Source of the DNA: a virus
Length of the DNA: 23,130 bases
Direction: 5' to 3' (one strand)
Virus genome (UHGV): UHGV-0077013
This document shows, in pieces, positions 1 through 23,130 of this stretch; within the stretch, counting starts at the first letter, position 1, and each line of letters begins with the position of its first letter. The position numbers and the translations under genes were made by a program. A model generated the notes under the pieces. It was given only the letters and a program-made list of their open reading frames with translations. It did no database searches and was not told the DNA's origin.

Positions 1-678
1 TTATCTAAAGTTACTTATTACTCGATACCTTATGCTTTGGTTACTCGCATCAAGTACTTCGAATTTAGCGCCTTTATAGCCAATTGTTTTAGACTCCGCG
101 AGATCATACTCAACATCGTTGTTGAAGGCCGGGCGCGCTGTATTCGCTGAAAATTCACGATATCCAATGTTGATTTTGTTTCCGACCCTTCCGTTGTAAA
201 GCAGAGCTTGCTGGAAAGATGAGTCACCACTGATGTTCAGATTAACCTTTTCGATCGGCATGTTGGTTTCACAGGTGGTAGCGCCAAAAACTGTTATTAC
301 ACATAAGGCATTATTTTTCTTTTCTACCATGATGCCCTGCCACATATCGGCAAGAGCTGCCTTTTCCACATTGGCTGAATCAGCACCGTTTGTGAGAAAG
401 TAATAATCTGCCTTGTTATCCTCACCAACCTTTTTCAGCATCCCCGGAGTAATCGTATAAGCCCAGGAAACTCTCGCGGGAGCATTAACCTTCAAACCTT
501 CGAACTTCTGTGACTCACCCTGCTTAATCATCGAATCACCGACATAAGCTGTATTAATGCTTCCTACAGGAGGCTCACTATAACTTTCTGTTTTTGGTAA
601 ATAATTATACTTTGGAGATGTACATCCCCCGAGTAAAAGAGCCATGCCGACAACTGAATAAACTGTTAGAATTTTCAT
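1..678 (-). CDS. Predicted lipoprotein (moron/cargo candidate), function unknown
   Basis: Complete ORF with stop at 1-3. ATG at 676-678 gives a signal peptide with lipobox (MKILTVYSVVGMALLLGGC). The track's longer version begins with TTG at 718-720. Spot counts give about 33% GC in the first 60 nt against about 55% in the structural genes. Sits directly after the tape measure gene on the same strand. Confidence 0.6.
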   Translation of the reverse strand: MKILTVYSVVGMALLLGGCTSPKYNYLPKTESYSEPPVGSINTAYVGDSMIKQGESQKFEGLKVNAPARVSWAYTITPGMLKKVGEDNKADYYFLTNGADSANVEKAALADMWQGIMVEKKNNALCVITVFGATTCETNMPIEKVNLNISGDSSFQQALLYNGRVGNKINIGYREFSANTARPAFNNDVEYDLAESKTIGYKGAKFEVLDASNQSIRYRVISNFR

Positions 679-759
679 ATCCCTATTCCCATCATTAAAT
701 AATCGGACTAATCCTACCAAGAATCAGCAAAACGACAAAACCCGTACTTAAGCTGGCTA

Positions 760-13887: not shown

Positions 13888-14136
13888 ATCCCTACCAATC
13901 CCTACTAACTGTCTCAGGCCACGAATGGCAAGGCTTTCAGACTGGTAGGCATTCAATTTTGTTGCCCTACATAACCCTACTTATCCCTACTAAATCACTT
14001 CAACGGCATTTTACTGCCTGTTTTATTTGGTAGGGATATGTAGGGATAAGTAGGGATAAAAATATATATCCCTACCTAGTTTAAAGCCTTGCTACGTCTG
14101 GCCTCGTCTCGTTTTTAGTAGGGCAGTAGGGATAAG
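13888..14136. repeat. Iteron array (about 11 copies of a GTAGGGATA-type unit) flanking an AT-rich spacer: putative replication origin / crr-like site
   Basis: CCCTAC cores at 13890, 13900, 13965, 13975, 13985 and 14070. GTAGGG cores at 14030, 14040, 14050, 14118 and 14126, plus a partial at 13944. Several are in 10-bp phased tandems. Opposed triplets flank a 39-bp AT-rich spacer (13991-14029). Lies immediately 3' of the primase/helicase gene. Confidence 0.7.
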
Positions 14137-14152: not shown

Positions 14153-16594
14153 TCAATCATCACTCTGCCCGCTCTCCACACCGTAAGCGCGTGGCATGAA
14201 CTCCTCAGCCTTCTCGTTATAGCCAACGTTGGTTTGCGCTCTGCCGTTAATGCTTCTCGTCAGGTAGCTGGCTCGGTACTCTTTTGCTGCTGATTTTATG
14301 GCGCGTGAAAACTTATTGACGGAAAGCGGTTTACCCAAACCGTGATACTCCATAAACGCCAGATAAAGATGATAAAGATACGTCCTCGGCTCTGGCTGGC
14401 CTGCCCATGTACCTCCGCCCATCATCATGCCTTTGGGTTCGTTCATGAAAAAAAGCGCCGCACACATATCGACAACCGGATCCGTGCCGCGTTTAACCTC
14501 TAGCGCCTCCTGCGAATCGCGCTGCTCTAGTAATAGTGCTTTTGCTTTGTTCTGGTCGGCAAAGGTGGTTAGCAGGTGGCGGATAATCACCGGGATTTCT
14601 CGCCTGATTTTTGCTGTTAAATCCGGGTCTTTGTCTGCGTCTGATACCGGGTTATTAAACGGGAATATCACGCGGCGGCGGGCAATGCCCCCGTTTCGCT
14701 CCGTGAATGTCATCGGCTCGTTATTGGTTGCCATAACAACGGCATTTATCACGGTTGTGAACTGCTTTTCATATTTCCCATCAATCTCTACCGGATCGCC
14801 GCCCGTAATGGCTTTAATCCCCGCACCCTCTCCAACATAGCGGGTCTGGTCAGGCATAATAATCAGGCTTTTTCCTACGAACTGCGCCCGTCCCCGTGCG
14901 GTGTCCAGCGTCATCATGCTACCGCTGGCGGTGTTGTGTTCACCTGCCAGCGTGGTTGCTATACTGCTGAATACGGATTTCCCACTGCCGCCCTCGCCAG
15001 TTATCTCAATGAATAGCTGCCAGTCGTGACGCTTCGCCAGCACCATAAACAAGGCTGCTTTGATACGCTCGGCCTTATGATGGTCGCCAGCCGTTGCATG
15101 ATTCAGCCAACGGGTAAAATTGGGGGCGCTGGTGGTAATATTTTCCCCCGGCGCTGGCGGGGTGTAGGTGATCCCATTGTGGTTCATCAGCCAGTTACCC
15201 GGCGAATGGGCGGAAAACGTCTGCGTGGCGAGGTCATAAACGCCGTTATCAAAACCAATCAGATCCCCGCTCCGCTCACCAATTACCGGTATTTGCAGCT
15301 TCATGGTTGCGACAACCGATTTAATCCCCTTTTCGGTGTAGTGGGCTTCGTGCTCGTCGAAAATTGCCACCATAACCCTTTCTAATTCACTGTCTGGTAG
15401 CTTCACCCATACGCCAGATTCGTAGCAGTAAACAGTGCCACTATCAGGGTTAACCGCCAACATATCCCATCGAGATGAAAGCAACCGCGCTTTCTGGCTG
15501 GCTGCCATTTGTGCAATATCTCCGACTTCGGCTTTACGGCGGGATTTACCGCCCGCAATGGCCTGTAGTTGTGGTTTCACGGCTTCCCCCTGAATCTGGT
15601 ACATCGAATCGTTAAACGCAGCCGTAGCGACTTCCAGCCCGTTTTGCTGGCGGTAGTCGTCCCAGTCGGCTTTGTAGTCTGTCGGCGGCAGCGCCACCCA
15701 GCCAGCCACGGATAATGCTGCTTTCTCTGCGGCATCTTTGCCCGTGTTCGCCTGTTCGTCCTGCTGGTGGTCGTTATCTGCGGCAATGATAATTTGCGAC
15801 TGCGGGTGTTTCCGGCGCATTACTCTGGCAACGTGGATCAGGTTCCCGGCGTCAATTGCCGACACTGTAAGCGCGTCCGGGCGCATCAGGTGAACGGACA
15901 GGGCCGTCGCCAGCCCCTCGGCAATTAATACGCTCTGCGGCTGTTCCGGTGCGTTAACGGCGTGATATGCCCCGCGCTTTGCTGAACCTGTCAGGAGTCG
16001 CTTCTCTCCCTGCGGTGTAATGGTTTGCGCTGCTGCCACTGCGCCGGATTCGTCCACCAGCTCCAGCAATAACGAACCATCCGGCATTACCGGATATTTA
16101 AACCCGGTCAGCCCTTTTGATTGCAGGTAATCAGATTCGCCCTGTGTGGCACTCTGGCGCATTCCGGCATACAGACGGGCAAACGTAGCCCTTCGCTGCT
16201 CTGCGTCCTCTGCTGCCTGTTTCTGGCGCTCCTGCTCACGCTGCTGGCGGTCAGCTTCCAGTTGCTCCCTTCTATGGCTCGCTGCCACCGGATCGGTTTC
16301 CGCTGCCCGGTAATCAATACCCAGCACATCAGCGGCAAGCCTCGCCGCTTCTGTGGTGGCGCAGTTGTTCACCTTCTTAATCAGGTCTAAACCGTCACCA
16401 GCGCCACACTGATTGCAGATAAAGCTACCGCGCCCGTTGTCGTCGAATCTGAAACGGTCTTTTCCACCACATGCAGGGCATGGAGAATGGCGGCGCGATG
16501 AATCAGGCACGTCGATAGACAATCCAGCCAGCACATAAGGCCAGCGCCCGGCGGCGGCACTGGTCACTTCGCGGATAAGGTCGATATTACGCAT
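14153..16594 (-). CDS. P4 alpha-like primase/helicase (zinc-binding primase domain plus P-loop NTPase)
   Basis: N-terminal zinc ribbon CPACGGKDRFRFDDNGRGSFICNQCGAGDG, a TOPRIM-like IIAADNDH motif, and Walker A GEGGSGKS. Preferred start is the ATG at 16592-16594, coupled (ATGCGTAA) to the upstream ORF; the track ORF extends to 16651. Confidence 0.9.
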   Translation of the reverse strand: MRNIDLIREVTSAAAGRWPYVLAGLSIDVPDSSRRHSPCPACGGKDRFRFDDNGRGSFICNQCGAGDGLDLIKKVNNCATTEAARLAADVLGIDYRAAETDPVAASHRREQLEADRQQREQERQKQAAEDAEQRRATFARLYAGMRQSATQGESDYLQSKGLTGFKYPVMPDGSLLLELVDESGAVAAAQTITPQGEKRLLTGSAKRGAYHAVNAPEQPQSVLIAEGLATALSVHLMRPDALTVSAIDAGNLIHVARVMRRKHPQSQIIIAADNDHQQDEQANTGKDAAEKAALSVAGWVALPPTDYKADWDDYRQQNGLEVATAAFNDSMYQIQGEAVKPQLQAIAGGKSRRKAEVGDIAQMAASQKARLLSSRWDMLAVNPDSGTVYCYESGVWVKLPDSELERVMVAIFDEHEAHYTEKGIKSVVATMKLQIPVIGERSGDLIGFDNGVYDLATQTFSAHSPGNWLMNHNGITYTPPAPGENITTSAPNFTRWLNHATAGDHHKAERIKAALFMVLAKRHDWQLFIEITGEGGSGKSVFSSIATTLAGEHNTASGSMMTLDTARGRAQFVGKSLIIMPDQTRYVGEGAGIKAITGGDPVEIDGKYEKQFTTVINAVVMATNNEPMTFTERNGGIARRRVIFPFNNPVSDADKDPDLTAKIRREIPVIIRHLLTTFADQNKAKALLLEQRDSQEALEVKRGTDPVVDMCAALFFMNEPKGMMMGGGTWAGQPEPRTYLYHLYLAFMEYHGLGKPLSVNKFSRAIKSAAKEYRASYLTRSINGRAQTNVGYNEKAEEFMPRAYGVESGQSDD

Positions 16595-16928
16595 GGTTGC
16601 CTCCTGCCACGGTCGCGCCCATGTCTTTAACCATGCTTTGCCATATCTCACGCCCGACGTCAGTCAATCCGTCATTAGTGACGCAACGCTCAAGAAGCTC
16701 GACCCCCACGGTTTCCCACTGCGGGTAGGACACTTTCATGGCTGCCAGTGTGTAGCTATCGATCAGGCTGCGAACGCCTTTTACTCCATTGACGATTTCC
16801 ACACGGACGGCGAGGCCGTCCGCATCAACCATGAAATAGTCACCGCCGCTGGTGGAGGTAATGTGGTTATACAGTGCCGACGCATACTTATTCGCCAGCG
16901 CATTCAGTCTGAAATTTTTAGTAATCAT
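16587..16928 (-). CDS. Hypothetical early protein
   Basis: 113-aa ORF whose stop overlaps the primase start. Confidence 0.5.
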   Translation of the reverse strand: MITKNFRLNALANKYASALYNHITSTSGGDYFMVDADGLAVRVEIVNGVKGVRSLIDSYTLAAMKVSYPQWETVGVELLERCVTNDGLTDVGREIWQSMVKDMGATVAGGNHA

Positions 16929-18135: not shown

Positions 18136-18311
18136 GCCGCCACCTCACGAACGCGGGTAATCTGGATGTGGGAAAGGCGTTCATTTCTGGCCTGATTTAG
18201 CGCCTCAGCTTTGGCGCTGATCGCGCTGCGGGCGTCAACGATATAAACGAACTCGACTAATTCGCCGCTCCGGGCGGTGGCGCATCCTGCAACACGGAAG
18301 TAATTAAGCAT
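18132..18311 (-). CDS. Hypothetical small early protein
   Basis: Preferred ATG at 18309-18311 (MLNYFRVAG...), overlapping the upstream stop as CATGCTTAA. The track ORF starts at an upstream TTG (18341). Confidence 0.45.
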   Translation of the reverse strand: MLNYFRVAGCATARSGELVEFVYIVDARSAISAKAEALNQARNERLSHIQITRVREVAA

Positions 18312-18495
18312 GTGCGCCCCCTGTGCGAATACGTCCGGCAAAAAAGCAAACGTGATCCCGCGCCAGAATGCGGCGGGCTTCCTGCTCAGTCTCTGCGGCG
18401 ATATGGTGAATTTTGACGGTAATTGTCGGCATATCGCGGCGAACTGCGGCGATAATCCAGATAAATTGCGGTTTTTGGGTAGGGGTAGTAGCCAT
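18304..18495 (-). CDS. Hypothetical small early protein
   Basis: Strong CAGGAGG Shine-Dalgarno 8 nt before the ATG at 18493-18495 (MATTPTQKPQFIWIIAAVRR...). The longer 119-aa track ORF is probably an over-extension. Confidence 0.5.
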   Translation of the reverse strand: MATTPTQKPQFIWIIAAVRRDMPTITVKIHHIAAETEQEARRILARDHVCFFAGRIRTGGAHA

Positions 18496-18653
18496 TATGG
18501 CAGCCTCCTGTAACTGGGATTTATTCCCACCACCGGAAACGCCAATTTCACTGGTGGTGAGCTGAACAGGGTTGGCGTAACCGGCGTTACAGGAAACCGG
18601 CGCGGATCGCTCCGCCCCCATCCAGCCCACCATTACTTTTTGAGCAATATGGG

Positions 18654-19253
18654 CTATAGCCATATCGCTGGGAAAGAGGTGTGCAGATGCGAGGACACAA
18701 AAAAGACGCTCGGCGCGTCATGTGTCGCCTGTAACATTATCAGGACGCCAATCCCGGCACCAGATTTTGCTGGTGCGCTATAACCATAAACCGGGTTGGC
18801 GATAGTCGGCAAGCCCTTTTTTATGGACTCCAGAAACTCACCTTCGCGCGTGCGCGTACTGTTGCATAAATTCCCTGCATCTAGTGGTGATGTCAGAAAA
18901 ATCTTCCCGCCTCGTGTAGTGATGATGGGAAAATCTTCCTCGCGTAGTGACCCCCAATAAATCTTCGTGCGCGTACTGGTCTCGAAACTCTCCTCGTCAC
19001 CACGACGAGAAAATGAGGAGCTGGCATTAGCTGGCACTGTTATGCCAGCTTCGCATTCATGCGCGTGCGTACTTGTCCCGAAAACACCAAGATTTGTAAA
19101 GATCTGGCGGTGGCAAATGTCAGGTTTTGACAGGTTCCAAACGTCGCTATTTGTCGCAATCTGGCGGCGGGCTGCTTTGCTCCAGACGTTAACATTTGCA
19201 TACATCAGGCCAGCCAGGGGAAAGGCTTTATTCTGGATGGCGGCATTAAGCAT
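18654..19253 (-). CDS. Questionable ORF spanning the repeat-dense region
   Basis: 199 codons; the ATG at 19251-19253 overlaps the antirepressor stop (CATGCTTAA). The translation is low-complexity and the DNA is full of direct repeats and hairpins, so it may be non-coding or encode only a short N-terminal peptide. Confidence 0.2.
   Translation of the reverse strand: MLNAAIQNKAFPLAGLMYANVNVWSKAARRQIATNSDVWNLSKPDICHRQIFTNLGVFGTSTHAHECEAGITVPANASSSFSRRGDEESFETSTRTKIYWGSLREEDFPIITTRGGKIFLTSPLDAGNLCNSTRTREGEFLESIKKGLPTIANPVYGYSAPAKSGAGIGVLIMLQATHDAPSVFFVSSHLHTSFPAIWL
18846..19171. repeat. Repeat-dense region between the antirepressor gene and the small early genes
   Basis: Three degenerate tandem units (AAATCTTC...CGYGTAGTGA) at 18897, 18930 and 18958. 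GTGCGCGTACT-type cores at 18850, 18966 and 19063. A 23-bp direct repeat ATTTGTxxxxATCTGGCGGxGG at 19092-19114 and 19149-19171. Hairpins at 19028-19049 and 18993-19009. Confidence 0.5.
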
Positions 19254-20091: not shown

Positions 20092-20526
20092 TTAGGCGGC
20101 GGTGAGATTGTCCGGGTATAGGTTGAGAATGTCGGCAATTTCAGGCTGAGAAAGTCCCTGATAGCCGCCAGCGTCGGCGTTATGGTTCACAAGCCGAATA
20201 ACTTTTAGAACGTCACCGCGCCCGGTAAAGCGATAGCGTAAATGTGACCCTATCCCGTCGGGGTTCTTTTCGTCTATACGCTCAAGCTGAATATCAAGCC
20301 TGCGCTCTAACTCGCTGGCGTAGTTCCTTCCAGATGAAAGGCGGCAATATTGCAGAATGTCATTTTCTGTCCATCCCTCTATACCAGTACGCAGCATATA
20401 GACGCGGGCGCGGTGTTTCTTTGGGGTACGCTTAGGTACTTGTACCGGGCTGGTGGTCGGCGTAATATCAGACGTGCGAATATCTGAGTTAGCCGCCTGC
20501 TGTACGGGGCGGTTTTTCTTTTTCAT
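20092..20526 (-). CDS. Hypothetical protein with basic N-terminus
   Basis: 144-aa ORF whose start overlaps the alpA-like stop (TAATG). Confidence 0.5.
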   Translation of the reverse strand: MKKKNRPVQQAANSDIRTSDITPTTSPVQVPKRTPKKHRARVYMLRTGIEGWTENDILQYCRLSSGRNYASELERRLDIQLERIDEKNPDGIGSHLRYRFTGRGDVLKVIRLVNHNADAGGYQGLSQPEIADILNLYPDNLTAA

Positions 20527-20744
20527 TACGCCACCTTTCCCCGGCGCTCCGCCAGCCAGTTGTGAATCTCAACCGCATCAAACGCAGTCACGTTATCTGT
20601 TAGCTTCACTGGGCGTGGAAGAGTGCCATTTTTAACCCATCTATCAATAGTAGGCAGTGAAACACCTAGCAATTCCGGCATGCGAAAGCGACGGATGTAT
20701 CCAGTTGTTGGGATAGCTGATGATGCTGGCTTGTGTGCTGTCAT
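20526..20744 (-). CDS. alpA: AlpA-family transcriptional regulator / excisionase-like protein
   Basis: 72 aa with a helix-turn-helix pattern ...MPELLGVSLPTIDRWVKNGTLPRPVKL...AFDAVEIHNWLAERR, typical of the AlpA family. Confidence 0.75.
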   Translation of the reverse strand: MTAHKPASSAIPTTGYIRRFRMPELLGVSLPTIDRWVKNGTLPRPVKLTDNVTAFDAVEIHNWLAERRGKVA

Positions 20745-20825
20745 ATCTCTAGTAACCTCTCTGATAGCTCATGAAGTTACTTAAAGTTTAGTGGTTGCCC
20801 ATACAGTATTTCTATTAAGACTAGA

Positions 20826-20877
20826 ATCTATTGAAAGAAATTATAAATCTATTGAAAAAATACTGATCCACTGAAAG
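20826..20877. promoter_or_regulatory. Three direct repeats (ATCYAYTGAAA) about 80-130 bp upstream of alpA: candidate operator/promoter element
   Basis: atctattgaaag at 20826-20837, atctattgaaaa at 20847-20858 and atccactgaaag at 20866-20877, spaced about 20 bp apart in a very AT-rich intergenic region. Confidence 0.35.
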
Positions 20878-21214
20878 ATTGCAAATGCAGGTGGGATAAT
20901 TATTTTCTTTATTTTCAATTAGTTACCAGTTTAAAAAATCATTGTTTTATCAAAGAGTTATATCTTTCATCGTCATTCATCATGTTTTTACATTTCCTTT
21001 TATCTTTTATTATTCAATTGGTTGAGTCGGTTTATAATGGCTCATGATGGCTTAAAATGCTAATGATAGCTGGCGTATCTTTTAGAGATGGGGTGATTAC
21101 AGATGAACTAAGCCGAACAGATATAGCAATGGCTAGGCATAGAATTATCTATGCTGGTGGAGATGGGTAAACAGGTAATGCCCCGCCATTGCTTTGGAGG
21201 GGCGTGAAAAGTGA

Positions 21215-21865
21215 TTAGTCGAGATCGTGGACAGCTAATAAAGCCCGTGAGATTTTTTCTAGGAATGTGGCTTTTGCTATTCCTTTATGGGATATCCCTT
21301 CATCCTTGATTAAGGTTTCTATGTCACGGTATATAGCTGTGCGATTAGGTTTCCCATTTTGGGTGTAGGAAGATGAGCCTGATTTTTTTATCAGCAGATG
21401 TACTATCAACCCCATCATTTTCATTGTCCCGTTTTCCTCATCCTGCTTTCTATGCTGCCCACGTCCGCTGCGGTTGGTTTCTTTGATGTAGTTTACTAAC
21501 TGGAGTCCTCCAAGGTTTCGGGCTTTTTCTTCCCAGCCCTTGGTGCCACGCAAATCATCAATCGCTTCTGATATTTTCTGAACAATTATTTCTGGTGTAT
21601 TTGTGTCAATAAATGGGTAAGAAGCTAAGAAAATATCAAGGGCATGGCAAGGCTCGTCTTTACTAGTTTTTTCACCTCTGTACACCTTGATAGCTCTGGC
21701 AAGATGAGTTCTGACAAAATCGACATATTCGAAATTTTCCTCAGGCACATCGCTAATGCGCATAGATGGGTTTAGGCCAGCCAAGGCCACAGCCATTTCA
21801 TGAGGGGTAATCGATACAGATGAACAAAGCCGTTCGATTGGCGATTTTCTCAAGATGTTGTTCAC
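21215..21865 (-). CDS. Hypothetical low-GC cargo protein translationally coupled to the integrase
   Basis: 216-aa ORF with a GTG start at 21863-21865 overlapping the int stop (ATGTGA) and a GGAGG Shine-Dalgarno 5 nt upstream. A spot count gives about 38% GC. No recognisable domain. Confidence 0.55.
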   Translation of the reverse strand: MNNILRKSPIERLCSSVSITPHEMAVALAGLNPSMRISDVPEENFEYVDFVRTHLARAIKVYRGEKTSKDEPCHALDIFLASYPFIDTNTPEIIVQKISEAIDDLRGTKGWEEKARNLGGLQLVNYIKETNRSGRGQHRKQDEENGTMKMMGLIVHLLIKKSGSSSYTQNGKPNRTAIYRDIETLIKDEGISHKGIAKATFLEKISRALLAVHDLD

Positions 21866-23130
21866 ATTTGCCTCCGGGCTTTATCGAATGGCGTTACGTT
21901 GTAGTCTTTTCCGCTTTCCAGTGCCACCAGCAAATCACACCACTGCGCCAGCGCCGCTTTACGCTCATCAAAATACTGGTGACGGTTATAGATACCTTCC
22001 ACGCCTTTAATTTTGTGGTTGAGGCATCTTTCAGCCACTACGGGATCAACGCCCAGCGCGGCTAAATGGGTGCGGGCTGTGCGCCGGAAGTCGTGAATCG
22101 TGAAATTAGGCACATCCGGCATTTCAGCGCGAACCTTAGCCAGTGCTACGGGTAAAGTGCTTTCCTGAATATGTGGGATCATTCTGTTTTGCATCTTTCT
22201 GGCTGGCAGTACCCATGCGCTGTTGCATGAGAACGTTTTAAGCTCTCTCAGCCATTCGACGGCTGGCGGTGCTAATGGGATGTCTATAGCGTCGCCGTTT
22301 TTACTGCGTTCTTCTGGTAAGTGCCAGATGCCTTTGTCCAGGTCGAACTCCTCCCAGCGGGCGGCGCATAACTCCATTTTGCGGACGCATAACGCTAACA
22401 GTAATTTGAACGTGATTTCGTTCTGGCGACTGAATCCCTTAGCTGTGCGCATAGCCTGAAACAGTCGGATTAGTTCGCCACGTGTTAACCAGCGGTCGCG
22501 GGAAACTTCTTTCCCTCCGGCGTCTGCCACCTCAAAGGCTGAACACGGGTTAATCTCCAGTGCGTGCCGCTTAATGCCGTAGTCAAATATGCGGCGTGTC
22601 CAGCGCAGAACGTCCGTTGCTATGGTCGGCGCTCCACGGTCAACAATACTTTTCAGCATGTCGTCGATATGGCGCGGCTTCACGTCCTCCACCTTCATGC
22701 TGCCAATGCATGGGTTTATATCTTTGTCGATACGGCGGCGGAGTATATCGGGGTGCTTCCAGCGCGGGAGGATCTGACGCTCAAAGTATTCAGCGGCAAG
22801 CTCTGAAACGCGCATAGCGTTCTTCTCTGCTTCCATCTTCGCCAGTGCTTCGGTTTTGCGCTTCTGCTTCTCTCCTGCAACGTCATAGCCCAACGCAACG
22901 CGAGCCGATAGCTCTTTGGCTGTCTCTCTGGCCTTTGATAGTGATAGCTCGGCATATGAGCCGATAACCATTGCTCGCTGCTTACCTGCGAATTTATAGC
23001 GAAAGCGCCAGAAAGGGACTGTGTAGTTTTTGGGGTAGCAAATATAAAGGCCGTTGCCATCGGCCCTTCCTTCAAATCTATCTCCGGCCTTTATCCATGC
23101 GCGGATCTGCATGTCTGTAATCTTTGGCAT
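21862..23130 (-). CDS. int: Tyrosine integrase, P4-like
   Basis: 422 aa with an arm-binding-type N-terminus (MPKITDMQIRAWIKAGDRF...) and a C-terminal catalytic region (HDFRRTARTHLAALG...GIYNRHQY). The ATG is the last triplet of the window. Confidence 0.92.
   Translation of the reverse strand: MPKITDMQIRAWIKAGDRFEGRADGNGLYICYPKNYTVPFWRFRYKFAGKQRAMVIGSYAELSLSKARETAKELSARVALGYDVAGEKQKRKTEALAKMEAEKNAMRVSELAAEYFERQILPRWKHPDILRRRIDKDINPCIGSMKVEDVKPRHIDDMLKSIVDRGAPTIATDVLRWTRRIFDYGIKRHALEINPCSAFEVADAGGKEVSRDRWLTRGELIRLFQAMRTAKGFSRQNEITFKLLLALCVRKMELCAARWEEFDLDKGIWHLPEERSKNGDAIDIPLAPPAVEWLRELKTFSCNSAWVLPARKMQNRMIPHIQESTLPVALAKVRAEMPDVPNFTIHDFRRTARTHLAALGVDPVVAERCLNHKIKGVEGIYNRHQYFDERKAALAQWCDLLVALESGKDYNVTPFDKARRQM

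What the first reader, a model, noticed from the sequence alone, without database searches (positions are those of the whole stretch)
21215..21865. Low-GC 216-aa gene coupled to the integrase, followed by a very AT-rich 470-bp non-coding stretch
The gene starts with GTG overlapping the int stop and has a good Shine-Dalgarno, so it is co-expressed with the integrase. Its GC (about 38% in a spot count) and that of 20745-21214 (about 27% in one 60-nt count) are far below the 48-55% counted in the structural genes. That marks horizontally acquired cargo at an integrase-proximal position, where prophages and satellites commonly carry anti-phage defence, immunity or exclusion genes. No known domain was recognised.
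Basis: partly seen in the sequence, partly recalled or inferred. Interest (0 to 1): 0.55.

Follow-up and report, generated by a model that had tools for sequence, protein, structure and literature searches.

The report
Swappable gene-plus-operator cassette upstream of alpA
The low-GC gene after the integrase and the AT-rich stretch behind it form one interchangeable cassette: an uncharacterised protein that always travels with a conserved repeat array on the promoter of the prophage's master switch gene alpA, so it more likely controls induction than serves as unrelated cargo.

Summary
A 216-aa gene (21215-21865, minus strand) starts at a GTG that overlaps the integrase stop and follows a GGAGG. 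Its GC is 42.7%. The next 470 bp are 33.8% GC, the lowest in the window.

The element is an E. coli myovirus-type prophage at yicC with a P4-like front end: int, alpA, C4/isrK immunity RNAs and a P4-type primase.

The protein belongs to a small orphan family (PHROG 30524). It has no Pfam, NCBIfam or PADLOC hit. A confident all-alpha model has no fold match.

The int-alpA slot is polymorphic. Near-identical elements carry unrelated single genes there, or none.

The AT-rich stretch is not a spacer. In every family locus examined (10 found through the protein, 24 found through the DNA pattern) the gene is followed by a hairpin, 10-bp-phased repeats and a fixed array of TYAATRGAW repeats. The array includes a palindrome over the -35 of a cassette-borne alpA promoter. 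It is absent from 12 loci with other or no slot genes, although the partnered Int and AlpA types differ widely.

Best reading (about 0.45): a DNA-binding gatekeeper of alpA. Main rival (about 0.33): anti-phage cargo. Neither is tested.

The parts
21862..23130 (-). P4-type tyrosine integrase. Its 5' end faces the chromosomal yicC junction, which lies outside the window.
   Evidence: Pfam Arm-DNA-bind_3, Phage_int_M and Phage_integrase. The window is 100% identical to NZ_CP136018, where yicC follows int.
21871..21875 (-). Shine-Dalgarno GGAGG, 5 nt upstream of the ORF216 GTG and inside the end of int.
   Evidence: Read directly from the sequence.
21215..21865 (-). ORF216: an orphan all-alpha protein of 216 aa with a GTG start overlapping the int TGA. 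It has a conserved basic loop SGRGxHRKxDE (residues 133-143) and a C-terminal 'KGxxxSTFxxK' helix-turn-helix-like segment (invariant G195, K204).
   Evidence: ORF call and translation. Family alignments. AlphaFold2 pLDDT 89.9. PHROG 30524 at 1e-34. No Pfam, NCBIfam, PADLOC or PDB match.
21137..21203 (-). Two hairpins just after the ORF216 stop (21180-21203 and 21137-21154). They probably terminate or stabilise the int-ORF216 transcript. There is no U-run.
   Evidence: RNA fold -30.3 kcal/mol, z = -3.3. My reading of the printed sequences finds a hairpin at the same place in each homologous locus, with unrelated sequence.
21032..21070 (-). About four degenerate 10-bp-phased repeats (GCTATCATTA GCATTTTAA GCCATCATGA GCCATTATAA).
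   Evidence: Sequence. Phased YCATYA-type repeats occur at the same place in all family loci and vary in copy number in relatives. Weak in the window itself: Tandem Repeats Finder does not call them.
20813..21012 (.). AT-rich core of the intergenic region (23.5% GC).
20808..20874 (-). Repeat array upstream of alpA. R1 is 20866-20874 (TCAGTGGAT). R2 is 20847-20855 (TCAATAGAT). R3 is 20826-20834 (TCAATAGAT). R4 is 20810-20818 (TTAATAGAA). Start-to-start spacing is 19, 21 and 16 bp. R3 and R4 are embedded in an imperfect palindrome, ATTCTAG-N5-ATAGAAAT (20808-20827).
   Evidence: The same architecture occurs in 10 of 10 loci found through the protein and 24 of 24 evaluable loci found through the DNA pattern. 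It is absent from 12 loci with other or no slot gene.
20785..20790 (-). Candidate -10 hexamer TAAACT of the cassette-borne alpA promoter. With a 17-bp spacer, the weak -35 (AGAAAT) overlaps R4.
   Evidence: A TAnnnT hexamer aligns here in 10 diverged loci. This is a consensus-level inference. The site was not reported by the promoter scan.
20752..20780 (-). Common alpA leader, GTAAC...GTTAC, containing the ribosome-binding site. The cassette boundary on the alpA side is at about 20780.
   Evidence: This leader is shared with loci that carry other slot genes, and everything upstream of it differs.
20526..20744 (-). alpA (72 aa), an AlpA/Vis-family regulator and the first gene of the early operon.
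   Evidence: Pfam Phage_AlpA at 7e-6. AlpA is the master activator in Gram-negative PICIs (PMC6092414).

Best explanation
ORF216 and the AT-rich DNA behind it form one functional cassette placed between int and alpA.

The gene is translated together with the integrase, so it is probably made in the lysogen. Hairpins after its stop codon probably end that transcript. The rest of the cassette supplies the alpA promoter. This promoter has a repeat array of three direct TYAATRGAW sites about two helical turns apart, plus a palindrome over the weak -35.

I propose that the ORF216 protein binds this array and gates transcription of alpA. AlpA is the activator that starts excision and replication in this class of elements. 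The likely binding surfaces are the C-terminal helix-turn-helix-like segment and/or the conserved basic loop. The most likely sign is repression, released by an unknown signal.

Swapping the cassette would then change how, or by what, the element is induced.

What is shown: the anatomy, the strict two-way association of the protein family with the array, and the cassette boundaries. What is inferred: DNA binding, the promoter assignment, expression in the lysogen, and the direction of regulation.
For: 1. Conserved order. Homologues down to 21-28% identity always show int, then the gene, then a 300-650 bp AT-rich intergenic region, then alpA. This holds in a myovirus prophage (the window), in cf-PICI-like vB_KppS-Ant, and in P4-like satellites of Yersinia, Pantoea and Serratia.

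2. Array tied to the family. The array sits at -130 to -65 from the alpA ATG in 10 of 10 family loci and in 0 of 12 loci with other or no slot gene. Array-positive and array-negative loci can share 97-98% identical Int and AlpA. Array-positive loci can share as little as 26-31%.

3. Reciprocal search. A DNA pattern for the array found 29 IMG/VR contigs. Of these, 24 have a family ORF upstream and alpA downstream, 3 are cut by contig ends, and 2 are chance hits.

4. Conserved promoter features. Eleven diverged loci align on the repeats, on an ATTCCAT-N5-ATGGAAT palindrome, and on a TAnnnT hexamer 17 bp beyond it.

5. Cassette boundary. It lies at GTAAC, about 36 nt before the alpA ATG, so each cassette brings its own terminator and alpA promoter.

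6. Protein features. Two of the four invariant residues (G195, K204) lie in the 'KGxxxSTFxxK' segment. Sub-threshold Pfam hits of the C-terminal segment are mostly DNA-binding helix-turn-helix families (Phage_AlpA twice, HTH_Tnp_Mu_2, SpoIIID, Rep3 WH2). hhalign places the segment on the AlpA turn and recognition helix (E 0.012).

7. Precedent and open question. A luxR regulator occupies the int-alpA regulatory region of PIME1 elements and is essential for excision (bioRxiv 10.64898/2026.01.12.698999). Whether Gram-negative PICIs have a repressor is described as unclear (PMC6092414).
Against: - The slot can be empty, and EcCICFT073 is described with int, alpA and ORF3 and has helper-inducible alpA. 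So such a protein is not generally required to control alpA.
- Other cassettes have only about 55 bp of promoter and no array.
- Immunity in these elements is probably RNA-based, through C4 and isrK.
- The association could reflect linkage within a cassette that is swapped as a block.
- The independent lineages are few, about six or seven.
- No expression or binding data exist.
Confidence: 0.45

Rival explanations
1. ORF216 is accessory cargo, either an undescribed single-gene anti-phage defence or a superinfection-exclusion protein. It sits in an integrase-proximal hotspot and is expressed with int in the lysogen. The repeat array is simply the alpA promoter architecture that happens to be inherited with this cassette. 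It would be bound by AlpA, a host factor or a helper-phage factor, not by ORF216.
For: - The slot is swapped between near-identical elements, and at least four or five sequence-unrelated single-gene families occupy it: the ORF216 family, an 'IPP' family, DUF6387, a 293-aa family and a 239-aa protein. All those measured are low in GC (33-43%).
- The slot is sometimes empty.
- This behaviour matches P4 and P2 defence hotspots, where defences are swapped between elements with identical cores and many occupants are novel (PMC13586616).
- The PICI EcCIMP1 contributes to superinfection immunity with no known defence system detected (PMC11773190).
Against: - None of the slot proteins matches any of 5027 PADLOC models, apart from one E 0.002 hit to candidate PDC-S31 for a different family.
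- No multi-gene or recognisable defence system was seen in the slot in about 20 sampled loci.
- It does not explain why this gene alone is always followed by a long structured intergenic region and the array, across at least four Int and four AlpA types, with no recombinants in 34 loci.
- The protein is a small soluble helical protein with no enzymatic or membrane signature.
Confidence: 0.33
2. ORF216 is an accessory factor of the integrase, such as a directionality or architectural factor for recombination at yicC. This would explain the translational coupling to int.
For: The start overlaps or abuts the int stop in most loci, and most family members lie in elements inserted at yicC.
Against: - Integrases 92-98% identical work next to unrelated slot genes.
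- The family also accompanies integrases only 27-41% identical that use other sites: yhdJ and next to der.
- In the L040-type loci the gene is separated from int by about 30 bp.
- The repeats lie about 2.3 kb from the attachment junction, too far to be arm sites.
- AlpA/Vis already fills the directionality-factor role in this class (P4 Vis is required for excision, as cited in PMC6092414).
Confidence: 0.07
3. The intergenic region is a replication origin or cis-replication region (iterons plus AT-rich DNA), and ORF216 is its binding protein.
For: Relatives carry 10-bp tandem units next to AT-rich DNA, some resembling the P4 iteron TGTTCACC (recalled from memory).
Against: - The window has clear inverted 10-bp iterons directly downstream of the primase (13965-14059), the usual origin position.
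- No 9-mer sharing above background was found between the intergenic region and the rest of each locus.
- Sister elements with about 110-bp gaps lack these repeats but encode the same P4-family primase, at least in the relative examined.
- The window's own phased repeats are weak.
Confidence: 0.05

Closest known systems
SaPI Stl / Gram-positive PICI Rpr master repressors
   Same: Both are encoded next to int in a satellite-type regulatory region. Both are highly diverse between otherwise similar elements. Under the best explanation, both would hold the element's induction switch off until a specific signal arrives (Stl biology as summarised in PMC6092414).
   Different: Stl is transcribed divergently from the genes it represses and has a recognisable N-terminal helix-turn-helix. 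ORF216 is co-directional with int and alpA, lies downstream of int, and has no demonstrable DNA-binding domain. Its target would be an activator gene (alpA) rather than the whole operon. Binding of a phage protein is untested.
[quoted passage not shown]
   Same: Both are integrase-proximal positions. In both, elements with near-identical core genes carry entirely different occupants, many of them unknown.
   Different: The P4 hotspot lies between int and psu-delta-sid and often holds recognisable, multi-gene defence systems. This slot lies between int and alpA. In the sampled loci it holds one small gene or none, never a known defence gene. Each cassette also carries the alpA promoter.
luxR regulator in the int-alpA regulatory region of PIME1 elements (bioRxiv 10.64898/2026.01.12.698999)
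   Same: It is an extra regulator gene in the regulatory region next to alpA of an int-alpA element. It is essential for excision, and its authors propose it senses the helper.
   Different: It is LuxR-family, with a known helix-turn-helix, and is divergent from alpA. The elements are conjugatively mobilised. There is no sequence relation to ORF216.
Cox / Apl / Vis-type regulators acting on arrays of direct repeats (from my own knowledge)
   Same: These are small phage proteins that bind arrays of short direct repeats overlapping early promoters in P2, 186 and P4-type elements.
   Different: Those proteins are 70-90 aa winged-helix excisionases whose sites are about 10-11 bp apart. ORF216 is 216 aa with an unmatched fold, and its candidate sites are 16-21 bp apart and include a palindrome.
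PHROG 30524
   Same: ORF216 matches over nearly its full length (residues 11-209; E 1e-34).
   Different: The PHROG has no assigned function, so membership explains nothing.

Membership tests
PHROG 30524 (unknown function) | Full-length profile match | tested here: met
   E 1.1e-34, residues 11-209 against profile positions 14-213 of 220.
Known anti-phage defence systems (PADLOC-DB v2) | Significant match to a defence protein model | tested here: not met
   No hit at E <= 0.1 for ORF216 or four distant homologues. P0029 gave only sub-significant CARF and HerA hits at about 1e-3.
Known anti-phage defence systems | Protects against phage when expressed | not testable with these tools
   Needs plaque assays.
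Defence or accessory hotspot cargo | The position is polymorphic between elements with near-identical flanking core genes | tested here: met
   Int is 92-98% identical and AlpA 69-98% identical across loci with different slot genes.
Defence or accessory hotspot cargo | Recognised defence systems occur at the same position in relatives | tested here: not met
   None in about 20 sampled loci. This is a small sample.
Helix-turn-helix transcription regulators (AlpA/HTH_17 and others) | Significant sequence or fold match to a DNA-binding domain | tested here: inconclusive
Regulator with a cognate operator | A repeated or palindromic site near a promoter that co-occurs with the protein | tested here: met
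   Array present in 10 of 10 and 24 of 24 family loci and in 0 of 12 others. It overlaps the predicted -35 of the alpA promoter.
Regulator with a cognate operator | The protein binds the site and changes transcription | not testable with these tools
   Needs gel-shift, footprint and reporter assays.
SaPI Stl-like master repressor | Divergent from the regulated operon, with an N-terminal helix-turn-helix | tested here: not met
   The gene is co-directional with alpA, and no helix-turn-helix domain was detected.
Recombination directionality factor or Int partner | Co-inherited with a given integrase | tested here: not met
   The same integrase (97-98% identical) occurs with other slot genes, and the family occurs with integrases only 27% identical.
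Rfam RF02996 int-alpA RNA | Covariance-model match between int and alpA | tested here: not met
   Absent from the window. Present at 47-66 bits in relatives with other cassettes.

The most novel reading that the evidence does not exclude
The int-alpA slot of Gram-negative int-alpA elements holds interchangeable sensor-regulator cassettes. These elements include PICIs, capsid-forming PICIs, P4-like satellites and prophages such as this one. Each cassette brings a protein together with the alpA promoter it controls. The ORF216 family, with a new fold and a distinctive palindrome-plus-direct-repeat operator, would be one such regulator. Together the cassettes would set which phage or signal induces the element, as functional analogues of the diverse Stl repressors of staphylococcal islands. 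This would address the open question of how helper phages switch on alpA.
Probability: 0.2. Interest if true: 0.8.

Novelty: new variant of a known kind. Interest (0 to 1): 0.58.

Why it matters
In Gram-negative phage-inducible islands AlpA is the master activator. [quoted passage not shown]

A protein family that always travels with a conserved operator-like array on the alpA promoter is a concrete candidate for that control. It is cheap to test with a gel shift and a reporter assay.

If it instead turns out to be a defence or exclusion gene, it adds a new single-gene system and defines the int-alpA slot as a hotspot distinct from the known P4 one.

Either way, annotation can improve. The gene and the 470 bp behind it should be treated as one unit, and that DNA should be annotated as the alpA regulatory region.

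Tried and rejected
- PDB sequence searches with the A1, A2 and C-terminal profiles found nothing significant.
- Homology between ORF216 and the other slot families was not shown. hhalign repeatedly aligned the same segment (ORF216 residues 100-160 against the 'AERHAxNRE...LL' module), but only at probability 0.2-1.3%.
- The intergenic region as a replication origin was rejected. Better iterons lie next to the primase, and no motif is shared with the rest of the locus.
- The repeats are unlikely to be integrase arm sites, because they lie about 2.3 kb from the attachment junction. They are unlikely to be AlpA autoregulation sites, because they are absent from loci with 92-98% identical AlpA.
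- No structured RNA was found in the intergenic region. The only hit was a chance-level CRISPR-DR10 match at E 0.08.
- I saw no conserved small ORF in the intergenic regions when reading them.
- The palindromes after the other slot genes turned out to be terminators, each a stem followed by a T-run, not operators.
- Locus searches were thin. The search for related loci failed with the diverse alignment, and the closer alignment returned only 2 loci among species-representative genomes.
- I found no published characterisation of this gene family, of DUF6387, or of genes between int and alpA.

Full report
**1. What the window is**

All large genes lie on the minus strand. In the direction of transcription they run as follows:
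- a P4-type tyrosine integrase (21862-23130)
- ORF216 (21215-21865)
- a 470-bp gap
- alpA (20526-20744)
- a 144-aa ORF, then antA, and ash/icd-like ORFs that contain an isrK RNA (18699-18776) and a C4 antisense RNA (18550-18637)
- a P4-family primase (14153-16651) and an SSB
- small and large terminase, portal, protease and HK97-type capsid
- tail terminator, sheath, tube and tape measure

The window is 100% identical to E. coli GDSC2239PM, where the integrase abuts yicC. It is therefore a myovirus-type prophage with a P4/PICI-like regulatory front end, not a satellite.

**2. The observation**

The ORF, its GTG start, the 4-nt GTGA overlap with the int stop and the GGAGG 5 nt upstream are all present.

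The ORF's GC is 42.7%, and its GC3 is 41.5%. The other 23 larger ORFs range from 49.5 to 58.6%. The gap is 33.8% GC overall, and its 200-bp core is 23.5%. No other 470-nt window falls below 40.6%.

The protein has no Pfam, NCBIfam or PADLOC match, only PHROG 30524 of unknown function.

**3. The protein**

An exhaustive profile search of 1.84 billion cluster representatives found only 31 relatives. Nearly all full-length ones are 210-241 aa. The named sources are Enterobacterales: Escherichia, Salmonella, Klebsiella, Buttiauxella, Pantoea, Serratia, Yersinia and Rouxiella.

With 23 diverse sequences AlphaFold2 gives pLDDT 89.9 and pTM 0.60. The model is all-alpha. A helical hairpin (residues 111-162) carries at its tip the most conserved motif, SGRGxHRKxDE. 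A C-terminal pair of helices (175-189 and 198-213) flanks 'KGxxxSTFxxK'.

**4. The slot is polymorphic**

In E. coli, 110 of 5426 complete genomes carry this cassette. Prophages at the same yicC site have 92-96% identical Int and 69-92% identical AlpA. They carry other single genes of 281-321 aa instead, followed by only about 105-115 bp before alpA.

A second lineage sits at yhdJ. It is the vB_KppS-Ant type, a 16.5-kb record with capsid and packaging genes that I read as a capsid-forming PICI. It shows the same pattern: an ORF216 homologue (28% identity), DUF6387, or other genes sit between 97-98% identical Int and AlpA.

A third lineage at tRNA-Thr has a 239-aa protein, DUF6387, or nothing.

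Six of the alternatives form one family. They share an N-terminal 'IPPxEY..LxRAAKLLGCE' segment and a C-terminal 'AERHAxNRE' module. I could not show homology between that family and ORF216. None of the occupants matches a known defence model. All those measured are low in GC.

This pattern matches what is described for P4 and P2 defence hotspots (PMC13586616).

**5. The AT-rich stretch belongs to the gene**

Homologues at 21-28% identity lie in P4-like satellites of Yersinia, Pantoea and Serratia at yicC. These elements carry a DUF927 primase and Ogr/Delta. Each homologue again sits directly after int and is followed by about 300-330 bp of 32-39% GC DNA, then alpA.

The intergenic regions of all family loci share an anatomy, which I read:
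- a hairpin after the stop codon
- short repeats phased at 10 bp
- an AT-rich tract
- a fixed array of TYAATRGAW repeats at about -130, -110, -90 and -72 from the alpA ATG

In the window the array repeats are R1 20866-20874, R2 20847-20855, R3 20826-20834 and R4 20810-20818.

The array is present in 10 of 10 loci reached through the protein. It is absent from 12 loci with other or no slot genes.

I then searched IMG/VR with a DNA pattern for the array alone. Of 29 hits, 24 have a family ORF upstream on the same strand and an alpA 59-111 bp downstream. Three are cut by contig ends, and two are unrelated chance matches.

Across these loci the family is partnered with at least four integrase types (27-41% mutual identity) and four AlpA types. 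The array therefore follows the ORF216 family and not AlpA or Int.

**6. Promoter context**

Sequence similarity between cassette types resumes only at GTAAC, about 36 nt before the alpA ATG. This is a common leader that contains the ribosome-binding site. Each cassette therefore supplies its own terminator and its own alpA promoter.

Aligning 11 diverged family loci shows three things: the repeats, an ATTCCAT-N5-ATGGAAT palindrome formed by R3 and R4, and, 17 bp downstream of it, a TAnnnT hexamer in ten of them. In the window this hexamer is TAAACT at 20785-20790. The implied -35 is weak and lies inside R4.

A dimer-type operator over the -35, with auxiliary direct repeats upstream, fits either repression by occlusion or class-II-like activation. 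The gene is coupled to int and so is presumably made in the lysogen, where alpA must be silent. For that reason I favour repression. The direction of regulation is an inference.

**7. Weighing the explanations**

*Regulatory cassette (0.45).* This explains the two-way association, the fixed geometry, the cassette boundary and the conserved residues. It has a precedent in the luxR regulator of PIME1 elements. It also addresses a question that the literature describes as open (PMC6092414).

The points against it are these:
- There is no demonstrable DNA-binding domain.
- The slot can be empty, and EcCICFT073 appears to have none yet has inducible alpA.
- Other cassettes have a minimal promoter.
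- Immunity is probably RNA-based.
- Linkage within a block-swapped cassette, with only about six or seven independent lineages, could mimic functional coupling.

*Defence or exclusion cargo (0.33).* This explains the swapping and the low GC. It does not explain the array, and no homology supports it.

*Integrase-accessory role (0.07).* Identical integrases sit next to other slot genes, which contradicts it.

*Origin of replication (0.05).* Clear iterons lie beside the primase, which contradicts it.

The first two readings are not exclusive. A swappable regulator that sets induction specificity would evolve much like a defence hotspot.

**8. Comparison with known systems and novelty**

The family belongs to PHROG 30524 and to nothing with a known function. 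In behaviour it resembles the diverse Stl repressors of staphylococcal islands. It fails their defining layout, since it is co-directional and has no recognisable helix-turn-helix.

It also resembles P4 hotspot cargo in behaviour. However, it sits at a different junction, and no known defence gene was seen there.

I rate it a new variant of a known kind: a regulator-plus-operator or accessory cassette of a temperate element, built on an unmatched fold. Interest is moderate to good, because a cheap experiment could settle a real question about how alpA is controlled.

Noticed in passing
L003:2209-2275, L004:2236-2302, L005:2096-2162, L021:1536-1603, L022:1536-1602, L023:1959-2025, L026:6224-6291: The Rfam motif 'int-alpA RNA' (RF02996; 47-66 bits against a gathering score of 35.8) sits between the int stop and the slot gene in relatives with 'IPP', 293-aa or some DUF6387 cassettes. 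The slot gene's ribosome-binding site lies just after it. The motif is absent from the window and from the ORF216-family loci scanned, where the gene start overlaps or abuts the int stop instead. It looks like a 5' leader of the slot gene.
   Followed up: partly
L010:7125-7330 and the same region of L028-L056: Among near-identical vB_KppS-Ant-type contigs the intergenic region after the ORF216 homologue ranges from 560 to 650 bp, in nearly all cases in exact steps of 10 bp. The cause is 0-10 copies of the units CATTCAACAG and ACACGTAAYG. This copy-number variation preserves the helical phase of whatever lies on either side.
   Followed up: partly
window 18550-18637 (-) and 18699-18776 (-): A C4 antisense RNA (76.9 bits) and an isrK RNA (75 bits) lie inside the ORFs annotated as ash and icd-like. 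This indicates P4-type RNA immunity. Those 'ash/icd' ORF calls (18304-18663, 18654-19253) may be partly artefacts laid over RNA genes.
   Followed up: no
window 13965-13991 and 14030-14059: Two sets of 10-bp tandem units, CCCTACTTAA x2.7 and GTAGGGATAA x3.0, lie in inverted orientation in the gap just downstream of the primase gene. This is the likely replication origin.
   Followed up: no
window 1-754 (-): A second low-GC patch (about 42%) covers a 239-aa ORF (1-720) downstream of the tape-measure gene. It has no Pfam match and may be another accessory gene.
   Followed up: no
L002, L004, L003, L023 (just after each slot gene stop): Every alternative slot gene ends with its own stem-loop, in several cases followed by a T-run. 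An example is GGTACTGCAAAATTACAGTACC-TTTT. The cassettes are therefore gene plus terminator plus alpA promoter units.
   Followed up: partly
NZ_CP128939.1 526293-529795 and NZ_CP116152.1 463992-467494; L038: An IS1 element is annotated within the region matching the int-ORF216-alpA query in two E. coli genomes. One IMG/VR contig has a 1.8-kb gap between the gene and the array. These may be natural disruptions that separate the gene from the array.
   Followed up: no
L011 (CACSKA010000004.1): A contig labelled Chryseobacterium sp. carries an 82%-identical ORF216 homologue with an int and alpA closely related to the window's (AlpA 90% identical). The record probably contains enterobacterial sequence, through contamination or mislabelling.
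   Followed up: no
window 20092-20526 (-): The 144-aa ORF translationally coupled to alpA (ATGA overlap) is conserved next to alpA in several int lineages. It is annotated in some genomes as 'PM1773 family protein'. It has no Pfam, PHROG, NCBIfam or PADLOC hit here.
   Followed up: no
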